IMG/VR virus record: IMGVR_UViG_3300032053_000007
Length of the DNA stretch: 64,000 bases
Strand: one strand, 5' to 3'
Source: a virus
Taxonomy: Duplodnaviria > Heunggongvirae > Uroviricota > Caudoviricetes
Shown piece by piece: positions 5,205-64,000 of this stretch. The position numbers and the translations under genes were made by a program. The notes below the pieces were generated by a model. It made no database searches and was not told where the DNA came from. It was given only the letters and a program-made list of their open reading frames with translations. Numbering within the stretch: position 1 is the stretch's first letter; each line of letters begins with the position of its first letter.

Positions 5205-5897
5205 ATGGCTCTTAATATAGATATGAGATTTTGGATTAACACGTTAATTTTCAATAATCTAGCTGAAATTTGTCCATTGCTAAGTCTTACTGGCGAAGAC
5301 CGAAAGGTTTATGAAATCTGCATTGAAGACTTTAAGAATTATACTGAATATCTTGACAGAAACCATATGAGTGTTGATAAACAAATATCTCAAGAGTTTC
5401 TACCTTCGCAACAAGTAATCATGGAAGAGATTATATCATTAATTGTAGAAAATTTTGGCGTAACCAAAAATTTGCAAGATATAAAAGACACAGAGGAATT
5501 TGTTCATTTTTGGGTTCAGTCGTGGTGGAAGAAATGGCAATATAGGACGAAAATTATTTTCAAAGACCAACCACATATGATTAATGTTAATTCACACTTT
5601 ACGGTGAATGATTTTACAGGAGAAGAACTTAACGAATTAACTCATGTCGTGACTGACAGACTTATACAATGTGGTGAGATATGCTGTGTCAACATTATGG
5701 CTGATGCCCTTATTAAGAAAGATATTCAAGCCGCTCAAAAATCAGAATGGACCGTTCAAGATAAACTTAATCTGATTCCAAGATTGCAAAGAGAAGTTAA
5801 GGAAATGAGTTATACCCACGGTCCACTCGTGTTCATTAAGGCAAACAAAAGTTACGGACTGAGGGAATGGCGGGATGGCTCAAACAAAATTATATAG
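5205..5897 (+). CDS. hypothetical protein
   Basis: track ORF, 230 aa, no recognisable domain. Confidence 0.6.
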   Translation: MALNIDMRFWINTLIFNNLAEICPLLSLTGEDRKVYEICIEDFKNYTEYLDRNHMSVDKQISQEFLPSQQVIMEEIISLIVENFGVTKNLQDIKDTEEFVHFWVQSWWKKWQYRTKIIFKDQPHMINVNSHFTVNDFTGEELNELTHVVTDRLIQCGEICCVNIMADALIKKDIQAAQKSEWTVQDKLNLIPRLQREVKEMSYTHGPLVFIKANKSYGLREWRDGSNKII

Positions 5898-11651: not shown

Positions 11652-12304
11652 ACAAACTTATTTGCTTAATGCCAGTTTACAACTCGGCTGATGTAGTTCT
11701 AGAAGCCTTAAAATCTATAGACGGCAAAGTTGATGAGATATTTTGTCTTGACGGGCGATGGATTGGTACGAGTGGTTTAGACCATTCAACTGATGAAACA
11801 CAGGAAATAATTTTGAATTTTTCTGAACATTCAAAATCTCGTGTTTGTTACACAAGATTACGACCTATGCATCAATGGGAAGCTAGGACAGAATCATTAA
11901 AATTTTGTGGTGATGGAGATTGGGCAATTTTTCTCGACTCAGATGAGATAATAATCATGTGGGGCGATAATGTTCGTAAAACGCTTGAAATATCAAATGA
12001 GAAAGTATATCGTATTTATTGGAAATTTTATAAACCTCATACGGCACTTCTAAGATATGGACTTGTTAAAAAGACAGAAACAATACATTGGTCAACAGAC
12101 CATAGGAGAATATTTGATAAAGATGGTGAATTAGATATAGTACATGCTCCAATAATCAATATTGTATTTGACCATCAAAAAATAGCCGACATAAAGAAGA
12201 TGCGTAAACGAGAGGAAGAATACAAACATTGGCTTCACGAATATGAAACTACACATTGGAATTTAGAAGATGGTCCAGACCCCAATCAAATTGATTTGGG
12301 ATAA
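11648..12304 (+). CDS. glycosyltransferase family 2-like
   Basis: LMPVYNSADVV N-terminus; FLDSDE DxD motif. Confidence 0.6.
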   Translation: MNKLICLMPVYNSADVVLEALKSIDGKVDEIFCLDGRWIGTSGLDHSTDETQEIILNFSEHSKSRVCYTRLRPMHQWEARTESLKFCGDGDWAIFLDSDEIIIMWGDNVRKTLEISNEKVYRIYWKFYKPHTALLRYGLVKKTETIHWSTDHRRIFDKDGELDIVHAPIINIVFDHQKIADIKKMRKREEEYKHWLHEYETTHWNLEDGPDPNQIDLG

Positions 12305-12555
12305 TCAAGATAGGAATTAGGTGGGTAATAAATTTTCCCATCAAAACATGGTATTTCTTTATAGTTCAATTCTTTACAACAAAAGTACCGATGATGACCA
12401 TTCAGAATTATGGCTTTTCCATCTTCACGAAACATTACTCGCAAAGGCTCTTTTAATCCATTAACTCGAATATCTTCAAGTAATACCTTCTCAACTTTGG
12501 GATTTCCTCTTGGAATTATTTTGTCTATGGGAACCATAATTATAGGGATTTTCAA
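12286..12555 (-). CDS. ParB/sulfiredoxin-like N-terminal domain protein (nuclease-type)
   Basis: PLRV..ILNGHHRYFCC..IPC; TTG start in junction. Confidence 0.65.
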   Translation of the reverse strand: MKIPIIMVPIDKIIPRGNPKVEKVLLEDIRVNGLKEPLRVMFREDGKAIILNGHHRYFCCKELNYKEIPCFDGKIYYPPNSYLDYPKSI

Positions 12556-12671
12556 GTGAACTGCACCTTAGTTTTTTCTTTTATATGTTTACAATTCTCA
12601 CAGAGCCATCGTGTCGTCTTTGGCTTCTTGTATAATACTTGAACATCTTTGCCACACCCATCGCAAATCAA
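12552..12671 (-). CDS. zinc-ribbon VxFT-tail mini-protein (39 aa)
   Basis: CDGCGK..CENC; ends TKVQFT; ovl at both ends. Confidence 0.55.
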   Translation of the reverse strand: MICDGCGKDVQVLYKKPKTTRWLCENCKHIKEKTKVQFT

Positions 12672-12850
12672 GTGAACTCGACCTTCTCTCCAAGTTCTCT
12701 ATAACCACATTCTTTAATTTGACCTTTACTTTTACAAGTGCATTTTTTACAAAGACAAACAGAAAGTCCTTTTGACACACTTTCCTCACACACTATATCA
12801 CCTTTACAGAAAAATTCTTTTCCACAATCAACACATTTCATTTTTATCAA
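12668..12850 (-). CDS. ZR-F family zinc-ribbon mini-protein
   Basis: CVDCGKEFFCKGDIVC..CLCKKC; ends EKVEFT. Confidence 0.65.
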   Translation of the reverse strand: MIKMKCVDCGKEFFCKGDIVCEESVSKGLSVCLCKKCTCKSKGQIKECGYRELGEKVEFT

Positions 12851-12960
12851 TCGAACTGCACCTTTACCCTCTCATCTTCTTTTTTCGGAAATTTAGGTTT
12901 CATTTTGTCGGCTGGAAGTAGAACAATGTTGTAATAGTCATCCCAACGATAGTTGCACAT
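12847..12960 (-). CDS. VxFT-tail mini-protein (37 aa)
   Basis: track ORF ..13089 trimmed to ATG 12960, 30 nt from TATA; ends VKVQFD. Confidence 0.45.
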   Translation of the reverse strand: MCNYRWDDYYNIVLLPADKMKPKFPKKEDERVKVQFD

Positions 12961-12985
12961 GGTAATCAATAGAACAATAACCATA

Positions 12986-13016
12986 AGACTTATATATACC
13001 TTTCTCCTTCTATATA
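12986..13016. promoter_or_regulatory. divergent promoter region (TATA boxes for minus operon and 13037 gene)
   Basis: cttatatatac plus ctatatac between divergent starts 12960(-) and 13037(+). Confidence 0.45.
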
Positions 13017-13036
13017 CAGATTGTGTAGTGATAAGC

Positions 13037-13201
13037 ATGGCAAAGCCATTTATTCCTTTGACAAAAGAGGAACAACAGGCTAGAGCCACTAGGATAGCAC
13101 AACGGGTTTGTACTTCATGCCGTTACGACTACGAAACTGGATGCAAAAAATGTATCTGGTATTTCATAATGAATGGAATGATAGGAGAGGAAGAATTTTG
13201 A
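13037..13201 (+). CDS. Cys-rich small protein
   Basis: track ORF 12953.. trimmed to ATG 13037 after SD GTGATAAGC; CTSC..CKKC. Confidence 0.5.
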   Translation: MAKPFIPLTKEEQQARATRIAQRVCTSCRYDYETGCKKCIWYFIMNGMIGEEEF

Positions 13202-20564: not shown

Positions 20565-20978
20565 GCATATACCAACTTTCTCTGGGATAGTCCCCTACCC
20601 CTAGCTCCCCTAGACGTTCAAAACTCCCTGAAAAAAAGACGTTTTCAGTTATTTTCTTTTCTCGAATCCTTAGTAAATCTAAATCGAAATGCTCAGGAAA
20701 TAGGAAATAAAAATAATACCAAAATAACAATCATAACAGAAATCACAAAGTTCGCCGACCAAAATCAAATTTTCGCCTGCGCGCCGCCTATGTGTGGGTA
20801 TGTGGTTTCAAAAAGTGTGACCGATGGTTTTTTCCTAAAGGTTTTTCTGCGTTACCCTTTTCCGTGTTTCCGTCTGGGTCACTTTCGAGGTTACGGTTAG
20901 TGTAACTTTCTGTGTCATTGAAAGTTCAACTCTTCCTTATATAATACGAGTTGCACCATATAAACCTTTCGGTAGTTA

Positions 20979-21042: not shown

Positions 21043-21174
21043 CGAACTGAATCGAACTCGGCAATACGAGCAAATTTCGGGGCGATTTGGCTCCCGCCCT
21101 TTCCCACCGAGAAAATTTCCCATAGGGTGAGTTTCGAACTGAGTCGAATTTCCGAAAACGAGCAAATTTCGAGG
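21043..21174 (+). repeat. two 40-nt imperfect direct repeats (period 92)
   Basis: cgaactgaRtcgaa..acgagcaaatttcgRgg at 21043-21082 and 21135-21174. Confidence 0.6.
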
Positions 21175-21311
21175 CAGATAATTTTTACAGGTCTCGCAAA
21201 TGACCATCACTTTTTTGCTGGTTGGGGATGTTTGTATGGAGAGAATGGCTTTCGAAATTTTTCGAAGTGCCAAAAAAGCTCCCAACCCTGCTGGTCATGG
21301 AAACCGAATGT

Positions 21312-24870: not shown

Positions 24871-25013
24871 ATGCCAAAATCACTATGGCTTATACAGGAT
24901 TAACGTGTGACGGATGCGGAAGAAAACAGATTGTGGTAGTTCTTAAAGGAAGAAAGTGGCTTTGTTATGACTGTATGCACAAAATGGACGTGGAGAAAGT
25001 AACCTTTACTTGA
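24867..25013 (+). CDS. zinc-ribbon VxFT-tail mini-protein (48 aa)
   Basis: CDGCG..CYDC; ends EKVTFT; TGA opens cassette 25011. Confidence 0.55.
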   Translation: MNAKITMAYTGLTCDGCGRKQIVVVLKGRKWLCYDCMHKMDVEKVTFT

Positions 25014-25043
25014 GCATGGTTCTTCTACCACAACCTTTATATA
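25011..25043 (+). promoter_or_regulatory. GAGCATGG-box/TATA promoter cassette
   Basis: offset 24; downstream only a 31-aa ORF (25071..25166) or noncoding RNA. Confidence 0.55.
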
Positions 25044-25369
25044 GTAGTTTGCACATACTACTTCTCAGCTATGGGTGATAGCATGGAAAACTACACCACA
25101 ACGAATCGTCTGAATGCTAGAATAGGACTTGAAACAACGATTACTGTTTCCATTATATATATTTAATGAATTGGTATATAGAATTAAAATGCGTGTAGAA
25201 AGAAACACGTACTTCTAGCCTAATCGTGCCCGTCCCGTTCAAGTGGACGAAGCGAAACCCCCTAACGGCTGTTCCGTTTTGGATGTTTCATTTTCAATTT
25301 TTCTACGTTAGTTTTTTTTCGAATGCTCAAAATTTTGCGCGAGCGCGACTCACCCGATTTTTCGAATTT

Positions 25370-25385
25370 TTAATCAGTTGATTAA
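25370..25385. promoter_or_regulatory. TTAATCA-NN-TGATTAA palindrome
   Basis: ttaatcagttgattaa. Confidence 0.55.
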
Positions 25386-25420
25386 TTATCCTATATTGTC
25401 CATGCAATATACGACCACGG

Positions 25421-25436
25421 TTAATCACCTGATTAA
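25421..25436. promoter_or_regulatory. TTAATCA-NN-TGATTAA palindrome
   Basis: ttaatcacctgattaa. Confidence 0.55.
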
Positions 25437-25439
25437 AAT

Positions 25440-25762
25440 TCTAAAATATAATTTTAATATTTTTTATATCTATGTCCTTTTGTCAAACGGGGCATTCTTA
25501 TGGCTTCTCTGGGCAATCGGATAGTTATTTTAATCCATAAAATCCTAAATAATTATATTTTCTTTTCGAAAATTGTTCGAATAGTCTATGGTAAAAGTAT
25601 GGACTTTTTGATGTTTCGAACTAACTCCGAAATCTATCAAGGATTATATTTAGGATTTATGGAATAGTTTATAACCTATGGGAAAAGACCATGAAAAATT
25701 ATATAACAGTCCCATTAAATCTTAAATTTAATTCATATACTTTTTCGAACTAACTTCGAAAC
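25440..25762. other. AT-rich noncoding block with inverted and direct repeats (origin-like)
   Basis: IR arms 25534-25558 / 25643-25663; tttcgaactaacYYcgaaa at 25614 and 25743. Confidence 0.35.
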
Positions 25763-25795
25763 TGAGCATGGCAATTCTTAGGGAAAGTTTATAAG
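25763..25795 (+). promoter_or_regulatory. GAGCATGG-box/TATA promoter cassette
   Basis: tGAGCATGGcaaTTCT..TTTATAAG; offset 24. Confidence 0.65.
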
Positions 25796-25827
25796 GGACA
25801 TTGCTATCTTAGTGTGTAGTGATTGAA

Positions 25828-26235
25828 ATGAACGACAAGAAATCAACTCAAGTCGTAGTAAAAACCTATGGAACTTCGTGGATAACTTCGCTGATTATCG
25901 CACTCATAGTCGGTGCTGTCGGCTTTCTAATTACGTCAAGCATACAAGGATTCATAGTCGGCTTCGTTATGGTTTTCCTGACTGAACTCATAATGCTGGC
26001 TTCGCTTATTCCCTACGTTGGCATATATCTCTATTGGGTCTGGGCGATACAACTAAATCAATTACTGATTAGTCTGGGAAACTTTACAACTGCACAAACA
26101 GCAACCTTCACAAACTTGCTAATCTATGCCCCATTGATTTACTGCCTGATTATCGGAATAATTCTTTTTGCCGTTTCAACACTCGTAGTCACGGTGTTCA
26201 TAGGAGCTTTGATAGGAGCATTGCTATCTCGATGA
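25828..26235 (+). CDS. polytopic membrane protein
   Basis: ATG after SD GTGATTGAA; about 4 TM helices. Confidence 0.6.
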   Translation: MNDKKSTQVVVKTYGTSWITSLIIALIVGAVGFLITSSIQGFIVGFVMVFLTELIMLASLIPYVGIYLYWVWAIQLNQLLISLGNFTTAQTATFTNLLIYAPLIYCLIIGIILFAVSTLVVTVFIGALIGALLSR

Positions 26236-27896: not shown

Positions 27897-28841
27897 ATGA
27901 GCGAAGAACAAAGTAAAAAAGAACTAGAGGAAAGAGCTAAATCTGTAATGGAGAGAATGGAAGAGATAATCGCTAAGGCTCAGAATGATGGAACGCTAGA
28001 GAGTTTTAACAAACCAATTCAACTTACTAAAGACTTTCTGACCACTAGACCGAACGATGCAAAGATAAAGACACAAATAGCATTATTCAAAAGCAGAACC
28101 TTCCTAGACAATTTCTTCTTAGACAAAGACGATAAACCTATGGGGGGCATTCCGAAAGTTGCACAGATAGGTGTGGTCGGAAACCCAGATGTCGGCAAGT
28201 CTTTAATCGCTCAGGAAGTTGCGCTCAGATTAGCTAGTGACGGAAACAAAGTTATTTTCACAACTAGCGAAGATATTTTCCAAGCTGACAACGACAGATT
28301 TGATTTGCAGAGTCGAATGAAACAGATGGCAACTTTTCTGGGACTGAGTTGGGAAAACATAAAGCAGAATCTTTTTGTGCTGGACGTTATTGCACACGGC
28401 GAACTTAGAGAATGGAATACACTTGTTTCAACTTATCGCGTACTCGTAGAACAGGAAAAGGCTGAGTTTCTAATTGTCGATTCGTTAACTCTCCTAGATG
28501 ATTATCGTGCTGGACTGAAATTCCACTTAGGCGAATTTGTCCGCTATAATCAGAAGAAAGGCGTGACAGGAATCTTTATCTCACAGAAAGCAAATGAGGA
28601 ATCAGTTGACCAACACGGACTTGCAGGGGGCATTGCATTAAGCCATTTGCTAGACGTGGAGTTTGAAATCAACTTTAAGAAACTCTCAAGTTGGGACGCT
28701 CAAATGAAAATCGACACCGAAGCAAAACAAGGCGAACTTCTACACTTCATACGGGTTCTCAAGTGTCGGCTAGGCAAGGCTGATATGCGATACCACAAAC
28801 TCCAAATAAGTAAAGATGGGATACTTCAATTAATCAAGTGA
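27897..28841 (+). CDS. KaiC/RadA-like RecA-superfamily ATPase
   Basis: Walker A GNPDVGKS, Walker B FLIVDSLT. Confidence 0.7.
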   Translation: MSEEQSKKELEERAKSVMERMEEIIAKAQNDGTLESFNKPIQLTKDFLTTRPNDAKIKTQIALFKSRTFLDNFFLDKDDKPMGGIPKVAQIGVVGNPDVGKSLIAQEVALRLASDGNKVIFTTSEDIFQADNDRFDLQSRMKQMATFLGLSWENIKQNLFVLDVIAHGELREWNTLVSTYRVLVEQEKAEFLIVDSLTLLDDYRAGLKFHLGEFVRYNQKKGVTGIFISQKANEESVDQHGLAGGIALSHLLDVEFEINFKKLSSWDAQMKIDTEAKQGELLHFIRVLKCRLGKADMRYHKLQISKDGILQLIK

Positions 28842-41487: not shown

Positions 41488-41624
41488 CAGAAGAGAAAAT
41501 GATAGAATGTTTTAGATGTGGAAAACTTTGGTTCTGCAAACCCTTCGCTGGAAGTCGTGCACTTTTTTGTCCCGAATGTCTAAAACTATTGTATAAACAA
41601 AAAGAGAAAGTTCGGTTCGATTAG
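41484..41624 (+). CDS. zinc-ribbon VxFD-tail mini-protein (46 aa)
   Basis: CFRCGKLWFC..CPEC; ends EKVRFD; stop TAG, last gene of array. Confidence 0.55.
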   Translation: MTEEKMIECFRCGKLWFCKPFAGSRALFCPECLKLLYKQKEKVRFD

Positions 41625-41729
41625 TCCCCTACCCCTAGCTACATTTGACAGGTAAATAGACTAGGGAAAAAGACGTTCTGGATGCTAGGGCGAAGCCAAT
41701 GGGAACTGAAGCCTGAAGTCGGTGCTTTT

Positions 41730-42099: not shown

Positions 42100-42164
42100 A
42101 TTTCCAGCACAGCTTTCACAATGGTCGCTTTTGCCAAACGGGACGCGGTGCGAGGCGCATTTAA

Positions 42165-42651: not shown

Positions 42652-42684
42652 CGAGCATGGTCGTTCTGGGGAAACCTTTATAAG
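42652..42684 (+). promoter_or_regulatory. GAGCATGG-box/TATA promoter cassette
   Basis: cGAGCATGGtcgTTCT..TTTATAAG; offset 24; leader cgctggcatctata shared with 44919 cassette. Confidence 0.65.
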
Positions 42685-52783: not shown

Positions 52784-52816
52784 CGAGCATGGACTTTTTC
52801 CCGAAACATTTATATA
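52784..52816 (+). promoter_or_regulatory. GAGCATGG-box/TATA promoter cassette
   Basis: cGAGCATGGactTTTT..TTTATATA; offset 24. Confidence 0.6.
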
Positions 52817-52837
52817 CTTGATTGACATCTGTAATAA

Positions 52838-53090
52838 CATGACGCACTCGCGTCTAACTAAAGGGCGCGTAAGACCGAAGGACGCACAACGTCCAAAAAC
52901 TTACCGACCCTTCAAAGTCGCTAGGGTTACGTTCGAAATAAGCGACAAGAACGGAACCGCACAAGACCGAAGGTTTGTCTCGCGGTAAAACGGGGCATTC
53001 CACCAACTTGTGCTTCAACTGACAAAAAAACCACAAACCACGTCCGAAAACGGGGCATGGCACACTCTCCATGCCCCCTCTCTCCTTTTT
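52838..53090 (+). other. promoter-to-terminator unit: GC-rich RNA or leaderless 49-aa basic ORF (52838..52987)
   Basis: ATG at predicted TSS; atypically GC-rich; repeats aagaccgaagg x2 and aaacggggcat x2; ends in hairpin plus T5. Confidence 0.35.
53052..53090 (+). terminator. hairpin plus T-run terminator
   Basis: ggggcatgg-cacactct-ccatgcccc ..ccttttt. Confidence 0.55.
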
Positions 53091-53122
53091 AAGTATGGTC
53101 TTTCTATGACAAGGTTTATATA
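53091..53122 (+). promoter_or_regulatory. GAGCATGG-box/TATA promoter cassette (variant box)
   Basis: aAGTATGGtctTTCT..TTTATATA; offset 24. Confidence 0.55.
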
Positions 53123-53144
53123 GGACGCAGACATATTACTTTTG

Positions 53145-53262
53145 GGTTCGTGCGGAACACTCTCAGATAGTCGGCGAGTTAATGAGCCATGAAAAACCGC
53201 TAGGGTATGGGAGTTAGGCGTGGGTAATGGCACTCACGGTGTATCAGCCACACGAACTCACT
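53145..53262 (+). ncRNA. candidate small RNA (about 120 nt)
   Basis: cassette-driven; no ORF over 11 aa; terminal 10-bp stem gttcgtgcgg / ccacacgaac. Confidence 0.4.
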
Positions 53263-53265
53263 AAT

Positions 53266-53298
53266 TGAATATGGTCTTTCTTAGCGAAAGTTTATATA
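53266..53298 (+). promoter_or_regulatory. GAGCATGG-box/TATA promoter cassette (variant box)
   Basis: tGAATATGGtctTTCT..TTTATATA; offset 24. Confidence 0.55.
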
Positions 53299-53319
53299 GT
53301 TGGGTGTGTATTATACTCT

Positions 53320-53436
53320 TCCGCACGTTGAAAAATCCTTATGCGGTGCGATACGACATAGGGCAAATTTCAACCTCTACATTAAATAAAACTAGGGTCA
53401 CGGCGAAACGCACTAGCCAAGACCCCCCTAAAATTT
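53320..53436 (+). ncRNA. candidate small RNA (about 115 nt)
   Basis: cassette-driven; no ORF over 6 aa before next cassette. Confidence 0.4.
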
Positions 53437-53469
53437 TGAGCACGTTCTTTCTTAGCAAACCTTTATATA
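53437..53469 (+). promoter_or_regulatory. GAGCATGG-box/TATA promoter cassette (variant box)
   Basis: tGAGCACGTtctTTCT..TTTATATA; offset 24. Confidence 0.6.
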
Positions 53470-53503
53470 GGACGGCGAACACTACATCTCAAAGGTTGAA
53501 ACT

Positions 53504-53893
53504 ATGAAATTGCAAGAACTTAGGGAAAAGTTGACATCGAAGGACGTTAAACCCTCAGAGTCATGGCTAGAAAATCAATATCCAGCACAACCATCTGAAC
53601 GATACTCTAAGCTAACATATTTGAACCTAGCGAACATTGAGGACAATTTCGGCAAAGAGGCAAAAGAACAACTAGAAAAATATCTTCTAAAGAACCCAGA
53701 AAAACGTGTCGTTGTTCTCGCGGAACTCACAGAGAAGGGCAATGTCAAAAAGCGACCCAGAATCTTCGTAGATTCAGGTGTTGGTTATGACAACTTTGCG
53801 TCATACTACGGAATCTATGAGCTATTCGCGTGTTCCGTTCACATGCACGGATTCATTGAAGTTTTCCAGAATATCAAAGACGGACAACAATAG
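53504..53893 (+). CDS. hypothetical protein
   Basis: track ORF. Confidence 0.6.
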   Translation: MKLQELREKLTSKDVKPSESWLENQYPAQPSERYSKLTYLNLANIEDNFGKEAKEQLEKYLLKNPEKRVVVLAELTEKGNVKKRPRIFVDSGVGYDNFASYYGIYELFACSVHMHGFIEVFQNIKDGQQ

Positions 53894-53904
53894 GTGACTG
53901 AGCA

Positions 53905-54252
53905 ATGAAGAACTTCCTAACATCAAAAGACAAATTCCCACCCGTCCATTGCAATGTTTTCCAAGACTATGACAGATTAGACGCGCTGGCAAAGAAACGG
54001 GGCTACCACGCTATTGAACTAGGAAATGACGACAAAATTACGACCCGTTCAGGCACAGGGCTTCAAAATGAACACCTTCATTCTGGATGGATAACAACTA
54101 TGGGTGAATCTGGAACAGACCCGAAAGCAATGACCGAATTGCTGAAAGACAAGATAAAAGAGTGCGAAACGCGCGGAGAAACCGTTATTATTGGCTTCTG
54201 CCAAACGGGATGGTTCTCAGTCGGATATACGCTTTACTTGAAGGACGCTTAA
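53905..54252 (+). CDS. hypothetical protein
   Basis: track ORF. Confidence 0.6.
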   Translation: MKNFLTSKDKFPPVHCNVFQDYDRLDALAKKRGYHAIELGNDDKITTRSGTGLQNEHLHSGWITTMGESGTDPKAMTELLKDKIKECETRGETVIIGFCQTGWFSVGYTLYLKDA

Positions 54253-54255
54253 GCC

Positions 54256-54435
54256 ATGATGGACAAAGAGTTTAAGGTCAAAATAACCCCTAAACAAGCT
54301 CGATACGTCATAAAGCTCTTGAAAGATGCCGTAAAGACGAAAAGACGCAAAAAACAGCAAAACATCGACAGCATTGAAATACTCGTCACGGACATCGACA
54401 TTCAGGTATCAACCGAGAACACACGATTTCTCTAA
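54256..54435 (+). CDS. small basic protein (59 aa), possible DNA binder
   Basis: below cutoff; KVKITPKQARYVIKLLKD strand-helix pattern (weak). Confidence 0.4.
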   Translation: MMDKEFKVKITPKQARYVIKLLKDAVKTKRRKKQQNIDSIEILVTDIDIQVSTENTRFL

Positions 54436-54450
54436 CCTTCTCTTTTTTTG
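54436..54450 (+). terminator. oligo-T terminator
   Basis: ccttctctttttttg. Confidence 0.5.
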
Positions 54451-54481
54451 TGCATGGACGTTCTACCACAATCTTTATATA
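54449..54481 (+). promoter_or_regulatory. GAGCATGG-box/TATA promoter cassette (variant box)
   Basis: tGTGCATGGacgTTCT..TTTATATA; offset 24; about 105-nt leader. Confidence 0.55.
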
Positions 54482-54608
54482 GCTGTTTGATTATTGTATT
54501 ACTCGTATGAGCACGGGAACAAGGTTTCCAAACTACGTCCTTAGCTGACGAGTGATGGACGCTTATTGGAGAATCGTCCGTGTTCCGCGCTAATCTAAGT
54601 GGTCTAAA

Positions 54609-54746
54609 ATGATAACACTAAAAACCGTGATTAAGAAAGTAAAAGAGAACGCTGGCATAATCATGGCATTTGCCCCGATAGCCTTTTTCGTAGTTGTAAT
54701 AGCTCTAATACTTTCTGGAATACTCAAAGTTCACATTGAATTTTGA
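54609..54746 (+). CDS. small TM protein (45 aa)
   Basis: hydrophobic core; TGA opens cassette 54744. Confidence 0.45.
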   Translation: MITLKTVIKKVKENAGIIMAFAPIAFFVVVIALILSGILKVHIEF

Positions 54747-54776
54747 GCATGGACGTTCTTAGGAAACCTTTATATA
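54744..54776 (+). promoter_or_regulatory. GAGCATGG-box/TATA promoter cassette
   Basis: tGAGCATGGacgTTCT..TTTATATA; offset 24. Confidence 0.65.
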
Positions 54777-54809
54777 GCTCGGTGTTGTTGTTATTATCAA
54801 GTGAACAAG

Positions 54810-55028
54810 ATGGTCAAGCAAAAAATAGGATTCTTTAAGTGGCTCTACACAAGAACCATCGAAGTCATACGTGACCCTCTAACCCAAAGTATAGGGGCAA
54901 TTCTGGGTGGAATTTTCATTTTCGCTTTTTCTGCTACTTTTGGTGCGCTATTCTCGCCTCTTCTATTTTTGGGTGTCCCTGTTGGAATATTGGTACTACT
55001 CTACGGAGTCTATAAAGTCGAACACTAG
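54810..55028 (+). CDS. small 2-TM membrane protein
   Basis: trimmed to ATG 54810. Confidence 0.55.
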   Translation: MVKQKIGFFKWLYTRTIEVIRDPLTQSIGAILGGIFIFAFSATFGALFSPLLFLGVPVGILVLLYGVYKVEH

Positions 55029-55031
55029 ATT

Positions 55032-55064
55032 CGAGCATGGTCTTTCTACCACAACCTTTATATA
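55032..55064 (+). promoter_or_regulatory. GAGCATGG-box/TATA promoter cassette
   Basis: cGAGCATGGtctTTCT..TTTATATA; offset 24; no CDS downstream. Confidence 0.6.
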
Positions 55065-55089
55065 CCCGTTTGACATACTACTCTATCAA

Positions 55090-55147
55090 GGGCGAAGGGA
55101 TATTGTTCCATTTTTTCACCGTCCTTTCTCGCGCTTTCCCTTCGCCC
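55090..55147 (+). other. 11-bp perfect hairpin at 5-prime end of a noncoding transcript
   Basis: gggcgaaggga (55090) / tcccttcgccc (55137), followed by C/T-rich tract to about 55330. Confidence 0.4.
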
Positions 55148-55335
55148 GTTCTACTCATTCCTTCTAACCTCTCTAACCCTCTACAAACTTAGACGATTTC
55201 ACTAACACTTTTTGTTAAAGACCTCAGAACCCCCGACCCAGAGAGCCTTTACACTTTTTGATTTCACCACGTCAACCGAAACTGACCCAAGTTCTGCCCA
55301 AGCCGTCTTGAGCCTCTCTCACGAAACCCAGATTT

Positions 55336-55351
55336 TTAATCAACTGATTAA
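55336..55351. promoter_or_regulatory. TTAATCA-NN-TGATTAA palindrome
   Basis: ttaatcaactgattaa. Confidence 0.55.
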
Positions 55352-55672
55352 CGAATCGTAGCTCGTAACGAGGCTGTGCACCCTTTACCCCGACCTCTAA
55401 CCATATAACACAAATTGTTAAGCAAATTCCCGAACCCCAGAGAACCCACGTCCGACCCCTAACCCAGACCCTCTAACGACCTCTAATCACTAACCCCCCC
55501 AAGAGAGCCATATACCCCCAAAAGTGGAGTCCATGCTTAAAAGAAATGCTCGATAAAAGATACTGATGACCTTTACATACGTAAAGGAAAGGGTTGTCAT
55601 ACGTAAAGGGTCTATGGAGTGGAATGTTGGCATACGACAACGGCGTGATTGACATAGTGCTGTAGCTCTATT

Positions 55673-55688
55673 TTAAACAGGTGATTAA
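55673..55688. promoter_or_regulatory. palindrome (one mismatch)
   Basis: ttaaacaggtgattaa. Confidence 0.5.
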
Positions 55689-55813
55689 CGACCCCATTAT
55701 AAAGAAGTCCCCCCCCTCTAGCTCCCCTGAATGCCAAAACAAGCCTAGAAAAAAGACGTTTTGGCAAACGGTGACTTTATTATCCGAAAGGCTCGCGGAA
55801 CTGTGGAGAATTT

Positions 55814-55829
55814 TTAATCAGGTGATTAA
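55814..55829. promoter_or_regulatory. TTAATCA-NN-TGATTAA palindrome
   Basis: ttaatcaggtgattaa. Confidence 0.55.
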
Positions 55830-56192
55830 GCAGGGCGAACCGACAGGTAGAAGGGACGGCGTGAACTCTCTGACCAGAAAATAATTGGAACCAAAAAAAC
55901 GCCTATGTGCGCTTATGTGATATTCTCAGTTGCATTCTATGGACAATTTCCTGTTAACCGAGGCGTTACCCCAAAAGTTGCACTTTTTGTTACACTAGAA
56001 GTTGTGCTAGACCAAAACGTTTATATACCCCCTATTTAAGCGTATCGCCGATAGCCTTATATAGTAGCTATTTAAACCTATCGGTTGCTTATATATGTGC
56101 AAACTTAGCAAAATTCGAACCATAAAGTACAACTCTCTATTATCACGTCCTTCGAACCATATACCGCAACTCTTATATAGATGCCATACTTA

Positions 56193-56225
56193 CTTATAAA
56201 CGTTTGCCCAGAACGACCATGCTCG
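56193..56225 (-). promoter_or_regulatory. GAGCATGG-box/TATA promoter cassette (minus strand)
   Basis: reverse complement reads cGAGCATGGtcgTTCT..TTTATAAG; offset 24; no convincing CDS downstream. Confidence 0.5.
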
Positions 56226-56346
56226 ATTTAGAGGCTGATTCAGGGCGGAAACAACTAACGGAGCACACTTACAGATTCGAACTCGCGCCGATGACTAGCT
56301 CTGAGACTGATTAACTAAAACGAACGTCATCGAACGGTGAATTCAT

Positions 56347-56526
56347 TAGGACTGATGACAATTTTGACGTTCTAACATTACCCCGAACTCCACGATTTAG
56401 CCTTATTCGACTAAACGGGGCGTACTCGCTCAATATCGTTGAGCAAATATAAAGGGAATTGAGCGTATTGCTCCGAACGACCCGCTCACAGGTTGATTTT
56501 AGAAAACGGGCATTATCCACAGTCCT
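56347..56526 (+). repeat. conserved 180-nt noncoding element, copy 2
   Basis: same landmarks and spacing as 42341-42520; hairpin cgctcaat/attgagcg shows a compensatory T-A to C-G change. Confidence 0.5.
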
Positions 56527-56792
56527 ACCCGCCATTGCTGGCGCGAACGGGCTTCGAACTTGGTTGTACTTTGAGTTACATTGAATATACATCATGCGTT
56601 ACTATGTAATATACGCTTAACGCGAACAACTCCAACTCTCTCAAACATACGTTCTCAGCGCACTATATATACGTTTGCTTTTTCCTGTACGACACATCTA
56701 CAAGTCAATGGTCGAACTGTTGGTTTAAGCTACACTTTAATGGAAACGTTTATAAGAGAGGGTGCGAACGTTATTCTAAGGACGTGAAACAC

Positions 56793-58577: not shown

Positions 58578-58642
58578 GTACAACTTTCTATTAACTGAAA
58601 ACTTAGCGAATTTTTAATTTTCTTCCCTGTTCGAATATTGTC

Positions 58643-58762
58643 TTCGATTCACCACAATGACGTGCTATTGAACCATACTCTCCATTGTGATGAATTTGTG
58701 TCCCACTTCGAGGTATGGTCTTTTCCCATGCTTTTCTTCGAATGTTGACTTCGATTCATCAC
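58643..58762. repeat. TTCGATTCAYCAC iteron-like repeats with hairpin
   Basis: ttcgattcaccac 58643, gtgatgaat 58687 (inverted), ttcgattcatcac 58750; related set at 59592-59780. Confidence 0.5.
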
Positions 58763-58830
58763 GAATTTTGGAAACATTGTTGGCATGGATGGAACGGTAC
58801 GGCGGAGCCGTGCGGCGAACTTAGCATTTT

Positions 58831-58846
58831 TTAATCAACTGATTAA
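58831..58846. promoter_or_regulatory. TTAATCA-NN-TGATTAA palindrome
   Basis: ttaatcaactgattaa, 20 nt upstream of TATA 58867. Confidence 0.55.
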
Positions 58847-58909
58847 CTCAGGACTGAGTAGGAATGTTTATAAGACTCGATGCTATTATACTCTTAAGGA
58901 CGTGGAATA

Positions 58910-59308: not shown

Positions 59309-59445
59309 AACTCCCTCTTTTTTTGACTTGCAAACTTAGCGGAAAAACAAATTTTAACTTAATATATACCTATGTGCGTTACACCCCAGACAGTTACCCC
59401 CAGAAGTTCAACTTTCGGTTGACCACAACCTTTATATAGGTCGCC

Positions 59446-59497
59446 ATACCGAAACGTTTATATACTACCCTATACCGAAACCCTTATATACTACCTA
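59446..59497 (+). repeat. two 26-bp tandem repeats each carrying a TATA box
   Basis: ataccgaaacSYttatatactaccYt x2. Confidence 0.55.
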
Positions 59498-59591
59498 TTT
59501 GACTTCATAGTTCCTGTTCTAACCATACAACACCGTCACTTATAAACCTTCCTATTTAACTGTTCAACAATAATACAGTTAGTACATTGTG

Positions 59592-59780
59592 TTCGATTCA
59601 TCACAACGATGAGAGCGAAAATTTCGTTCGAGAAAATATACATGAAAACACCATAGTACGAGTAACCACTTCGAAAACACACATATGGGGCAATAAAAAG
59701 ACCATTGTGGTGAATCGTAGCCAATTTCGAAGCATGGGAAAAGCATGGTAAATTCTCGAATCGTGACTTCGATTCACCAC
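59592..59780. repeat. TTCGATTCAYCAC iteron-like repeats (second set)
   Basis: 59592 (+), 59707 (inverted), 59768 (+); central ttcgaagcatgggaaaagcatgg resembles reverse complement of 58716-58752. Confidence 0.5.
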
Positions 59781-60024
59781 GCATAGGAACAAAAGTTCAC
59801 CGTGAGTTCAACTGTGGGTGACATTCAATTCAAGTGATGCGTGTCCATGTAATATACGCTTAACGCGAGGCTCTGGTTATGAACGTGGGCACGGGACTAT
59901 TTAAACGTTTGCTTTTAACTGTTTAACGTGACTACACATGACCATATAAACTGTATATTTGACCTACACTTTAAAGCCAACCTTTAAATACTACGTTCGA
60001 CACGTTACCTAATGGTGAACAAGG

Positions 60025-63412: not shown

Positions 63413-63573
63413 TTCCTAGTGATTAGCCTCTAGGTAGAATATAGCTAACTGATGAACCTTATAGGCTATGGTTTATAGGGTCAAGGTTGTTGCACTACAC
63501 TTGCAAGCTAGAGGCTATCACACAATAATACTTTTAGTACAACTAATTAGTTACACTTTTAGTTATACCAAAT

Positions 63574-63751
63574 CCTTATATACTAGCCTGTTTCACTTGT
63601 GCACAACACTACTATATAAACCTTTCACAACCCTTATATACTAGAGCCTCACTCACGAGCACAGCACTACTATATAAGGCTTACGCAACCCTTATATACT
63701 ACACCCTACCCCCTACCCCTATTTAAACTTATCGCAACGCTTATATACTAG
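63574..63751. repeat. 58-bp tandem repeats carrying inverted pairs of TATA boxes
   Basis: ccttatatactag at 63574, 63632, 63690 (and 63739); ctactatataa at 63610, 63668. Confidence 0.6.
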
Positions 63752-64000
63752 ACCCGCCCCTCTACCCCCTTATAAAGCTATCGGACAATTCTCAGTTGCA
63801 CTTTCGGTTGCACCCACAAGAGCACTAACAATTATCACAAAAAGTACAACTTTCAGTTACATCAACAAGTCCCCCGCCAGTTCCACCCACAGGCGAATCA
63901 GAGGTAATATAGTCCCCCCCTAAACACAGGAATTCGATTTTGGTGGATGGGACTAAGCTGGGTAAATTGCCCTATGTTTCAACTGGGTCATGATGTTTCA

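What the first reader, a model, noticed from the sequence alone, without database searches (positions are those of the whole stretch)
25440..25762. AT-rich block with a long imperfect inverted repeat and duplicated hairpins, a candidate replication origin
This region lies between two palindromes (25370, 25421) and the cassette at 25763. It is the most AT-rich stretch of the window.

It contains a ~21-24 bp inverted repeat (25534-25558 and 25643-25663). It also has two copies of tttcgaactaacYYcgaaa (25614 and 25743), each self-complementary.

Upstream, the cassette at 25011 drives only a 31-aa ORF or a noncoding RNA.
Basis: inference. Interest (0 to 1): 0.5.

Follow-up and report, generated by a model that had tools for sequence, protein, structure and literature searches.

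The report
Conserved AT-rich protein-binding DNA platform
The AT-rich block is real, non-coding and better conserved than its neighbouring genes in related large, probably archaeal, virus-like elements. It looks like a docking platform for DNA-binding proteins in front of a promoter, and nothing tested here shows it is a replication origin.

Summary
The stretch 25422-25744 is the lowest-GC stretch of the window (26% against 38%). The tract 25430-25475 is the least stable duplex in 64 kb.

Two of the flagged features are not specific to this site:
- The flanking palindromes belong to a 24-copy dispersed family.
- The "hairpins" are pairs of the self-complementary hexamer TTCGAA, 11 bp apart.
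- The same layout (TTCGA pair, ATGG..CCAT dyad, TTCGA pair, then a promoter) recurs at about 21.2 kb, at 58.7 kb and in a relative.

In four relatives, two sub-blocks are 85-94% identical in DNA while the adjacent gene is only 61-76% identical. A fifth relative carries a replaced motif set in the same layout. In another relative a gene splits the block.

The inverted-repeat arms do not change in a compensatory way. The block holds no canonical promoter and no conserved ORF. No Rfam family matches it.

GC skew does not change across the block (0.165 against 0.152, p=0.66). No initiator gene was seen from -10 to +70 kb.

Best reading: a cis-acting platform for DNA-binding proteins, most likely an upstream control region (about 0.4). 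Replication origin remains possible (about 0.22).

The parts
25011..25048 (+). Promoter cassette (TGAGCATGG-N3-TTCT-N9-TTTATATA) of the sub-class 'TTCTACCACAAYCTTTATATA'. Its TGA is the stop codon of the upstream 48-aa gene.
   Evidence: PWM score 19.8.
25066..25320 (+). Conserved non-coding RNA of about 255 nt. The ends are inferred from the TATA position and the T-runs. The 3' domain (core CCCGTCCCGTTCAAGTGGACGAAG plus the hairpin AACGGcuguuCCGTT) is conserved in 6 lineages. The 5' domain comes in two types.
   Evidence: No Rfam match. The 31-aa ORF is not conserved.
25337..25356 (.). Conserved GC-rich island GCGCGAGCGCGACTCACCCG between the RNA's T-runs and the palindromes.
   Evidence: Alignment.
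25370..25385 (.). 16-bp palindrome TTAATCAGTTGATTAA, a member of a 24-copy dispersed family.
25421..25436 (.). 16-bp palindrome TTAATCACCTGATTAA of the same family. It marks the left boundary of the block.
   Evidence: In L010 an extra gene sits between the two palindromes.
25430..25475 (.). Nearly pure A+T tract. It is the least stable duplex of the window and resembles a DNA-unwinding element.
   Evidence: It is conserved in L009, L010, L015 and L016, shortened in L007, and less AT-rich in L027.
25472..25495 (.). Imperfect 24-bp palindrome ATGTCCTTTTGTCAAACGGGGCAT, the core of conserved 'block B' (25441-25545).
   Evidence: block B is 85-94% identical in four lineages. TTTTGNCAAACGG recurs at 42129 and 55759.
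25482..25520 (+). Direct repeat GTCAAACGG / GGCAATCGG, 30 bp apart. In relatives it reads GGCAAACGG twice.
25534..25558 (+). Left arm of the inverted repeat. It contains copy 1 of AAATCCTAAAT (25540-25550, direct orientation).
25565..25581 (.). TTCGAA pair 1 (TTCGAAAATTGTTCGAA; half-sites 11 bp apart).
   Evidence: Position is conserved in all lineages.
25588..25602 (.). Central ATGG element (ATGGTAAAAGTATGG). In relatives it is an ATGGTA..(T)CCAT dyad. It is the centre of dyad-symmetric unit 1 (25534-25666).
   Evidence: The nhmmer reverse-strand self-match has E=6.6e-7.
25615..25631 (.). TTCGAA pair 2 (TTCGAACTAACTCCGAA).
25643..25663 (-). Right arm of the inverted repeat. It contains copy 2 of AAATCCTAAAT (25648-25658, inverted orientation).
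25678..25692 (.). Dyad ATGGGAAAAGACCAT, the core of conserved 'block D' (25643-25735) and the centre of dyad-symmetric unit 2 (25613-25771).
   Evidence: An exact second copy lies at 58715-58729 on the - strand.
25717..25727 (+). Copy 3 of the arm motif (AAATCTTAAAT, direct orientation).
   Evidence: The three exact copies in the window all lie in the block.
25744..25760 (.). TTCGAA pair 3 (TTCGAACTAACTTCGAA). It abuts the next promoter cassette.
   Evidence: In 6 lineages it lies 26-28 nt from the TATA box; in two promoters that lack the TGAGCATGG element it lies 12 nt away.
25763..25800 (+). Canonical promoter cassette of the downstream gene. That gene is 25828-26235 and encodes a 135-aa membrane protein.
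   Evidence: PWM score 23.7.

Best explanation
What it is. The block 25421-25762 is a cis-acting, double-stranded-DNA docking platform for sequence-specific proteins. It is not a gene, not an RNA structure and not a canonical promoter.

Its parts fall into two groups.
(a) 'Common' words, which this element also uses in front of other promoters:
- the 16-bp palindrome;
- TTCGAA-N5-TTCGAA pairs on one face of the helix;
- ATGG..CCAT dyads.
(b) 'Locus-specific' words:
- three AAATCYTAAAT sites, oriented direct, inverted, direct;
- the 24-bp palindrome and the GGCAAACGG repeats of block B;
- a 45-bp, almost pure A+T tract.

The words are arranged as two overlapping dyad-symmetric units that end directly at the BRE/TATA-type promoter cassette at 25763.

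Most likely mechanism. The block is an upstream control region. Proteins encoded by the element (or by the host) assemble cooperatively on the phased sites. The easily deformed AT-rich DNA helps them bend or wrap it. The assembled complex then switches the adjacent promoter, and it insulates that promoter from the strongly promoted non-coding RNA unit upstream.

Shown here: the anatomy, the conservation, the recurrence of the layout at other promoters, the motif replacement in one lineage, the absence of an ORF, a promoter or RNA covariation, and the absence of a skew change.

Inferred: that proteins bind, which proteins they are, and that the output is transcriptional.
For: - Conservation. 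Blocks B and D are 85-94% identical in DNA in L009, L010, L015 and L016. The adjacent gene is 61-76% identical and the ATPase 2 kb away is only 48% identical in protein in L009.
- Spacers vary while half-sites stay. This is the pattern of protein-binding sites.
- The TTCGA pairs occur only in non-coding hubs (21134, 21251, 25565, 25615, 25744, 58630, 58737), plus one coding hit. There are 10 matches against 1.2 expected.
- Seven of the 61 TTCGAA sites in the window fall within 443 bp.
- The layout pair, ATGG/CCAT dyad, pair, then promoter recurs at 21.13-21.39 kb, at 58.63-58.87 kb (with the identical 15-mer ATGGGAAAAGACCAT) and in L031 5493-5650.
- Pair 3 keeps a fixed distance to the TATA box: 26-28 nt in six lineages, and 12 nt where the pair replaces the TGAGCATGG element in L010 and L027.
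- In L027 the block is split by a promoter plus a 99-aa gene, and each half again sits directly upstream of a promoter.
- In L007 the arm motif AAATCCTAAAT is replaced by (C)GTAAAG at the right-arm and post-block-D positions (three exact CGTAAAG) and, read by eye, by TTGTAAAG at the left arm. The layout and the TTCGAA pairs are kept. This is as expected for sites that co-evolve with a specificity protein.
- Both halves are significantly dyad-symmetric (E=7e-7 and 1e-4).
Against: - About 330 bp is long for an archaeal promoter-upstream region. Blocks B and D lie 70-320 bp from the TATA box.
- No regulator gene could be identified; all the neighbouring genes lack recognisable homologues.
- The unique AT tract next to arrays of binding sites is also what an origin looks like.
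- The locus-specific words are found nowhere else in the 64 kb. This would fit a single-copy function such as an origin or a centromere.
- There are no transcript data.
Confidence: 0.4

Rival explanations
1. Replication origin. Initiator proteins would bind the three AAATCYTAAAT sites and block B, and melt the adjacent 45-bp A+T tract. Transcription from the 25011 cassette towards the block might help opening or priming.
For: - It holds the least stable duplex of the window, directly beside the ordered binding-site arrays.
- Non-coding conservation is strong.
- The locus-specific motifs are unique in 64 kb, and they are replaced as a set in L007, as iterons and initiators co-vary.
- In five of the six lineages the RNA unit lies directly upstream of the block; in L010 an extra gene sits between them. 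The RNA is transcribed towards the block.
- A RecA/KaiC-family ATPase lies 2 kb downstream in several lineages.
Against: - GC skew is 0.165 on the left and 0.152 on the right (p=0.66). AT skew does not differ significantly either. Cumulative skew has no extremum here across 80 kb, although the genes on both sides are co-oriented.
- No ORB-like consensus.
- No initiator, MCM, primase or polymerase gene from -10 to +70 kb.
- The ATPase is of the KaiC/GvpD/RAD55 type and is not linked to the block in L007, L029 or L030.
- Half of the motif vocabulary recurs at two other hubs within 38 kb, which is too dense for origins.
- The block tolerates a gene insertion at its centre in L027, and the inverted repeat is absent there and in L007.
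- Base rate: the window is 64 kb of an element of at least 152 kb and holds about six long non-coding hubs.
Confidence: 0.22
2. Another single-copy DNA-transaction site. One option is a centromere-like partition site. Another is a packaging (pac) recognition site built from clusters of a palindromic hexamer around a central bendable region, as in P1 parS and P1 pac.
For: - Two motif types lie symmetrically around central dyads, and clusters of a palindromic hexamer (TTCGAA) are present.
- The element is large (at least 152 kb), so a partition function would be useful.
- The similarity to P1 parS/pac is from my own knowledge, not tested here.
Against: - No ParA/ParB or terminase gene is adjacent. 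The only ParB_N-domain gene lies about 27 kb upstream, and the weak terminase-ATPase-like ORF lies 8.5 kb downstream.
- The TTCGA-pair layout is not single-copy.
- No contig ends map to the block.
Confidence: 0.12
3. The block is transcribed. It would be either a read-through extension of the upstream RNA or a small RNA started from the weak TATA-like site at 25667, and the repeats would be RNA hairpins.
For: - A TATA-like AGTTTATAAC is conserved in 5 of 6 lineages inside block D.
- Each TTCGAA pair can fold as a 5-7-bp hairpin.
Against: - The best promoter-matrix score inside the block is 6.0, against at least 14.5 for all 23 training cassettes.
- The long-range arms show non-compensatory changes: TTA on the left with CCT on the right in L015.
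- Hairpin potential follows trivially from the palindromic hexamer.
- Several T-runs lie between the RNA and the block.
- No Rfam hit better than noise.
- The 55-aa ORF 25500-25667 changes mostly non-synonymously and is cut short in relatives (read by eye).
Confidence: 0.08

Closest known systems
Archaeal upstream activating or operator arrays bound cooperatively by Lrp/AsnC-type regulators (for example Ptr2 of Methanocaldococcus or Ss-LrpB of Sulfolobus; from my own knowledge)
   Same: Several 15-17-bp palindromic sites with AT-rich centres, regularly spaced and lying just upstream of BRE/TATA. Binding is cooperative and deforms the DNA.
   Different: No such regulator gene was identified here. 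The half-site TTCGAA is not a documented consensus. The platform is much longer and mixes at least four motif types.
Archaeal oriC-type origins (inverted ORB elements flanking an AT-rich unwinding element, next to orc1/cdc6)
   Same: An AT-rich unwinding-type tract, inverted copies of a short motif, and an intergenic location.
   Different: No ORB or mini-ORB consensus, no adjacent orc1/cdc6 gene and no skew inflection.
Iteron or transcription-activated phage origins (lambda ori; T4 oriF/oriG and the T7 primary origin, which are a promoter plus a downstream unwinding element; from my own knowledge)
   Same: Repeats in helical phase beside an AT-rich tract. A strong promoter upstream is aimed at the tract. 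The repeats vary between lineages as alleles.
   Different: There is no array of four or more tandem iterons and no linked initiator gene. T-run terminators lie between the promoter and the tract.
Mycobacteriophage 'stoperators' and other dispersed phage operator families (compared with the flanking 16-bp palindromes only; from my own knowledge)
   Same: A short site repeated about 24 times through the genome, mostly in short intergenic spaces near promoters and gene ends.
   Different: These sites are symmetric, often occur in pairs 51-72 bp apart, and have no known binding protein.
P1 parS and P1 pac sites (from my own knowledge)
   Same: Two kinds of short motif, or clusters of a palindromic hexamer, arranged around a central bendable region.
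   Different: No adjacent par or terminase genes. The layout occurs more than once in the genome.

Membership tests
Archaeal oriC-type origin | Two or more ORB or mini-ORB elements (TCCANNGGAAAC-like, with a G-string) in inverted orientation | tested here: not met
   The pattern gives 7 matches against 4.3 expected in the window, and none lies in the block. GGCAAACGG-like words in block B resemble only part of an ORB.
Archaeal oriC-type origin | AT-rich duplex-unwinding element | tested here: met
   The tract 25430-25475 is the only stretch of 30 bp or more with at most 2 G/C. It holds the least stable 40-mer of the window, 4.4 sd below the mean.
Archaeal oriC-type origin | Adjacent initiator gene (orc1/cdc6 or another Rep) | tested here: not met
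   Pfam and PHROG scans of 112 window ORFs, and the precomputed Pfam labels for -10 to +70 kb, show none. Most neighbouring genes have no recognisable homologues, so an unrecognised initiator is not excluded.
Archaeal oriC-type origin | Strand-composition (skew) switch at the site | tested here: not met
   GC skew is 0.165 on the left and 0.152 on the right (p=0.66). There is no cumulative extremum at 25.5 kb. Only about 80 kb of at least 152 kb could be tested.
Iteron-type phage or plasmid origin | Array of three or more direct repeats of 17-22 bp in helical register beside an AT-rich region | tested here: inconclusive
   Three 17-bp TTCGAA pairs exist, but they are 50 and 129 bp apart and are internally symmetric. 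The GGCAAACGG repeat has two copies 30 bp apart.
Iteron-type phage or plasmid origin | Autonomous replication, or a marker-frequency peak | not testable with these tools
   No read data and no host.
Promoter-upstream operator or activator array | Palindromic sites at a fixed distance from the core promoter across lineages | tested here: met
   Pair 3 ends 26-28 nt before TTTATA in the window, L009, L007, L016, L027 and L031. It ends 12 nt before TTTATA in L010 and at L027 pair 1. The one exception is 39 nt in L015.
Promoter-upstream operator or activator array | The same site layout is reused at other promoters of the same genome | tested here: met
   It recurs at 21134-21266 before cassette 21393 and at 58630-58754 before the TATA box at 58868, and in L031 at 5493-5616 before a cassette.
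Promoter-upstream operator or activator array | An identified cognate DNA-binding regulator | not tested
   No candidate gene was recognised.
Structured non-coding RNA | Helices maintained by compensatory substitutions, or a match to a known family | tested here: not met
   The arms change without compensation. Rfam shows only noise.
Partition (parS) or packaging (pac) site | Linkage to parAB or terminase genes | tested here: not met
   No such genes lie within several kb.

The most novel reading that the evidence does not exclude
The block is a transcription-assisted replication origin of a very large (at least 152 kb) uncultivated archaeal virus-like element, possibly infecting Bathyarchaeia. 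An element-specific initiator would bind the three AAATCYTAAAT sites and block B, and the 45-bp A+T tract would melt. The conserved RNA of about 255 nt, fired towards the block from the 25011 cassette, would help opening or priming. Lineage-specific motif sets (type I against L007 type II) would act as origin-specificity alleles.
Probability: 0.12. Interest if true: 0.7.

Novelty: new variant of a known kind. Interest (0 to 1): 0.35.

Why it matters
If the block is a control platform, it gives a concrete and testable picture of how a very large, almost entirely unannotated, apparently archaeal virus-like element organises its transcription. That picture has three parts:
- a standard promoter cassette of about 40 bp;
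- a dispersed 16-bp palindrome;
- upstream modules built from a small vocabulary of short motifs.

If it were the origin, it would be one of very few origin candidates for large archaeal viruses.

In either case, the motif replacement in one lineage points to a protein and DNA-site specificity pair that could be searched for. As it stands, the finding is a well-documented conserved cis-element of unknown function, not a demonstrated origin.

Tried and rejected
- Rfam, at gathering thresholds and at permissive thresholds: only chance-level miRNA and snoRNA hits that reflect the palindromes.
- tRNA scan: none found.
- blastn against phage records: no match.
- IMG/VR protein scan and cassette-pattern scan: nothing found.
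- Scans of the metagenome and genome collections with the RNA core pattern. These gave two true relatives (L015, L016), one re-detection of the known L007-lineage contig (L012) and five high-GC chance hits (L013, L014, L017-L019), which I discarded.
- Sigma-70 promoter and terminator scan: at chance level.
- The 55-aa ORF 25500-25667 as a gene. Rejected because its substitutions are mostly non-synonymous and it is cut short in relatives.
- The 31-aa ORF after the 25011 cassette. Rejected because its start codons are lost in L007.
- ORB search: negative.
- The KaiC-like ATPase as a replicative helicase. It has no PDB sequence match. Its homologues are annotated as KaiC/GvpD/RAD55, and the closest cellular relative is from a Bathyarchaeota genome. 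I therefore did not use it as origin evidence.
- Looking for the block upstream of the ATPase in more distant relatives (L029, L030, L031). It is absent; L031 holds only the pair, dyad, pair layout of another hub.
- Pfam scan of the accessory ORFs inserted in relatives: nothing significant.
- Walking along the contigs beyond 10 kb either side of the window was not possible, because only window-encoded proteins can be looked up. Whole-element skew is therefore untested.
- Literature searches by sample accession and for large Bathyarchaeia viruses found nothing relevant.

Full report
**Context**

The window has about 38% G+C. It is densely packed with small ORFs, nearly all on the + strand. It has no tRNA and no Rfam family hit.

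Identical DNA occurs in several sediment metagenome assemblies, on contigs of 86, 137 and 152 kb. The element is therefore at least 152 kb long.

Of 112 ORFs tested, few have any family match. About 24 copies of a cassette of about 40 bp lie in front of genes. The cassette reads TGAGCATGG-N3-TTCT-N9-TTTATAWRGGAC, and an SD-like GTGAT plus ATG follows 30-45 nt later.

Three observations hint at an archaeal host, possibly Bathyarchaeia, but do not prove one:
- The KaiC-family ATPase at 27897 has its closest cellular homologue (42% identity) in a Candidatus Bathyarchaeota genome.
- A class II ribonucleotide reductase just beyond the window resembles those of haloarchaeal tailed viruses (about 40% identity), among others.
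- Sigma-70-type sites are at chance level.

**Checking the observation**

- The block is the lowest-GC stretch of the window at 200-323 bp (24.5-26%). A stretch at 15.3 kb ties with it at 500 bp.
- The tract 25430-25475 is the only stretch of 30 bp or more with at most 2 G/C. It holds the least stable 40-mer of the window: -36.3 kcal/mol against -51.2 ± 3.4.
- The inverted repeat has a perfect 12-bp core and extends to about 17/18 with one indel. A core of that length arises in 1.4% of shuffles of this AT-rich block.
- The two TTTCGAACTAACTYCGAAA copies are real, and there is a third, degenerate copy at 25565.

**Features that are not special to this site**

The palindrome TTAATCAnnTGATTAA occurs 24 times in the window against 1.1 expected. 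It often occurs in pairs 51-72 bp apart. At 42652, 44919 and 47303 it lies exactly 6 nt upstream of a cassette.

The 'hairpins' are self-complementary because each consists of two copies of the palindromic hexamer TTCGAA, 11 bp apart. Seven of the 61 TTCGAA sites in the window fall within 25318-25760. Paired TTCGA sites occur only in non-coding hubs, at 21.13/21.25 kb, 25.57/25.62/25.74 kb and 58.63/58.74 kb, apart from one coding hit.

The 58.7-kb hub also carries the identical 15-mer ATGGGAAAAGACCAT found in the block. The layout pair, ATGG/CCAT dyad, pair, then promoter is also seen at 21.2 kb and in relative L031. TTTTGNCAAACGG from block B recurs at 42129 and 55759, each time near a 16-bp palindrome.

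**Features that are special to this site**

The three exact copies of AAATCYTAAAT in the window all lie in the block. They are oriented direct, inverted, direct. The A+T tract and block B as a whole are also unique to it.

A profile of the block matches its own reverse strand twice: over 25534-25666 (E=7e-7) and over 25613-25771 (E=1e-4). The block is therefore two overlapping dyad-symmetric units. They are centred on the ATGG element at 25588-25602 and on ATGGGAAAAGACCAT at 25678-25692.

**Comparative evidence**

I recovered further lineages through homologues of the downstream membrane protein (46-89% identical) and through a pattern scan with the RNA core. Five of them (L009, L007, L010, L015, L016) hold the whole region, and L027 holds it from the palindromes onward.

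In five of the six lineages that hold the whole region (the window, L009, L007, L015, L016) the order is the same:
1. cassette;
2. RNA of about 255 nt;
3. T-runs;
4. GC island;
5. palindrome pair;
6. A+T tract and block B;
7. arm;
8. pair 1;
9. dyad;
10. pair 2;
11. arm and block D;
12. arm;
13. pair 3;
14. promoter.

In L010 the order is the same except that an extra gene sits between the two palindromes.

Blocks B and D are 85-94% identical in DNA in four lineages (L009, L010, L015, L016). In the same lineages the neighbouring gene is 61-76% identical, and in L009 the ATPase is only 48% identical in protein. The middle of the block is about 63% identical, but it keeps the TTCGA half-sites and the dyad while the spacers vary.

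L007 shows the reverse pattern. Its membrane gene is 92% identical, but block B is 60% and block D 68% identical. The arm motif is replaced by (C)GTAAAG at the right-arm and post-block-D positions (three exact CGTAAAG in the block) and, read by eye, by TTGTAAAG at the left arm. The TTCGAA pairs, the GGGAAAAGACCAT dyad and the layout stay the same. This replacement of the arm motif together is what co-evolution with a specificity protein would produce.

The inverted-repeat arms do not change in a compensatory way. In L015 the left arm reads TTA where the right arm keeps CCT. The repeat is missing in L007 and L027. It is therefore two oppositely oriented protein sites, not a maintained hairpin or cruciform.

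Relatives carry extra ORFs at three positions:
- between the two palindromes (L010);
- between pair 3 and the membrane gene (L007, L010);
- between pair 1 and pair 2, together with its own promoter (L027).

After the L027 insertion, each half of the block again lies directly upstream of a promoter.

**What the block is not**

- Not coding. The 55-aa ORF is not conserved.
- Not a canonical promoter. The best matrix score inside it is 6.0, against at least 14.5 for every training cassette.
- Not a known or covarying RNA.

**Tests of the origin reading**

Genes lie on the + strand on both sides of the block. A change in replication direction should therefore show as a change in skew on top of a constant transcription bias. 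None is seen:
- GC skew is 0.165 over the 20 kb to the left and 0.152 over the 20 kb to the right (p=0.66).
- AT skew does not differ significantly.
- Cumulative skew rises steadily from -10 kb to about 52 kb and has no extremum at 25.5 kb.
- The only shift is at 52-56 kb (0.142 falling to 0.006, p=9e-5), in a region of several cassette-driven non-coding units.

No ORB-type consensus is present. No initiator, MCM, primase or polymerase gene is present in the roughly 80 kb I could annotate. The ATPase 2 kb downstream is of the KaiC/GvpD/RAD55 type, and it is not linked to the block in L007, L029 or L030.

Three hubs sharing half of the motif vocabulary lie within 38 kb, which is too dense for origins. 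On base rates, the window is less than half of the element and contains about six long non-coding hubs.

The points in favour of an origin still stand: the uniquely unstable tract beside ordered site arrays, the single-copy and lineage-variable motifs, and the upstream promoter aimed at the block.

**Verdict**

The block is a conserved, cis-acting platform for DNA-binding proteins.
- Upstream transcription-control region for the promoter at 25763: most likely, about 0.4.
- Replication origin: possible but unsupported, about 0.22.
- Partition or packaging site: about 0.12.
- Transcribed RNA element: about 0.08.

Read-depth profiling of the source metagenomes and transcript mapping would decide between these.

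Noticed in passing
window, about 24 sites (for example 960, 3076, 5134, 6517, 15846, 25763, 26431, 37045, 47303): A promoter cassette of about 40 bp, TGAGCATGG-N3-TTCT-N9-TTTATAWRGGAC. Its core looks like an archaeal BRE/TATA promoter, and its TGA is often the stop codon of the preceding gene. In a subset the conservation runs into the upstream gene's last codons (..V-x-F-T-stop). A matrix built from the core finds about 60 + strand sites and about 20 - strand sites, most of them beyond 56 kb.
   Followed up: partly
window, 24 sites (for example 5097, 20979, 21312, 33389, 42165, 44897, 47281, 52306, 55814, 58831): A dispersed 16-bp palindrome, TTAATCAnnTGATTAA (24 copies against 1.1 expected). 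It often occurs in pairs 51-72 bp apart, or 6 nt upstream of a cassette. In L010 an extra gene is bracketed by copies. It could be an operator, an insulator or a recombination boundary.
   Followed up: partly
window 25066-25320; L009 5237-5501; L007 4203-4462; L010 4432-4686; L015 and L016 (reverse strand): A conserved, cassette-driven non-coding RNA of about 255 nt. Its 3' domain is invariant (CCCGTCCCGTTCAAGTGGACGAAG plus an AACGG/CCGTT hairpin), and it has two alternative 5' domains. It has no Rfam match, shows little covariation, and its fold z-score is only -1.6.
   Followed up: partly
window 52784-56700: A cluster of cassette-driven units without ORFs (52784, 53090, 53266, 54449, 55032), followed by a C-rich non-coding stretch at 55.1-55.6 kb. 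It also holds a - strand cassette at 56217-56225. GC skew drops from about +0.14 to about 0 here, the only compositional shift in 80 kb.
   Followed up: partly
window 20590-20660, 41624-41690, 55708-55760; also 20787, 41826, 55903: Repeated non-coding segments shared by three hubs: GTCCCCTACCCCTAGCTCCCC...AAAAAGACGTT and CGCCTATGTGCG..TATGTGA. They suggest that the hubs are paralogous modules. Seen by eye only.
   Followed up: no
window 59378-59495 and 63530-63783: Tandem arrays (periods 26, 49 and 58 bp) of units carrying TATA-like CCCTTATATACTAC or ACGTTTATATAC boxes. They give promoter-matrix hits on both strands.
   Followed up: no
window 58630-58880 and 59590-59790: Further repeat-rich hubs. 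They carry TTCGATTCAYCAC repeats in both orientations, ATGGTCTTTTCCCAT and ATGGGAAAAGCATGG. The layout is the same as the right half of the block.
   Followed up: partly
L010 4798-5214 and 5548-5937; L027 240-539; L007 4852-5484: Lineage-specific accessory ORFs inserted in and around the block, each with its own promoter. They have no significant Pfam match (best hit DUF968, E=0.04). This locus is a hotspot for insertion or exchange.
   Followed up: partly
L007 3836-4140: One lineage has a second, unrelated cassette-driven non-coding unit immediately upstream of the conserved RNA.
   Followed up: no
L020 1-9900 (upstream of the window) and L023 17117-19994 (downstream): The element also carries a glycan-synthesis gene cluster, a ParB_N-domain gene and a trypsin-like protease upstream of the window. 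Downstream it carries dCMP deaminase and a class II ribonucleotide reductase with an adjacent HNH gene. This fits a very large virus-like element.
   Followed up: no
window 12286-13089: A local reversal of GC skew (-0.16) coincides with several - strand ORFs. This may be a small block of genes transcribed in the opposite direction.
   Followed up: no
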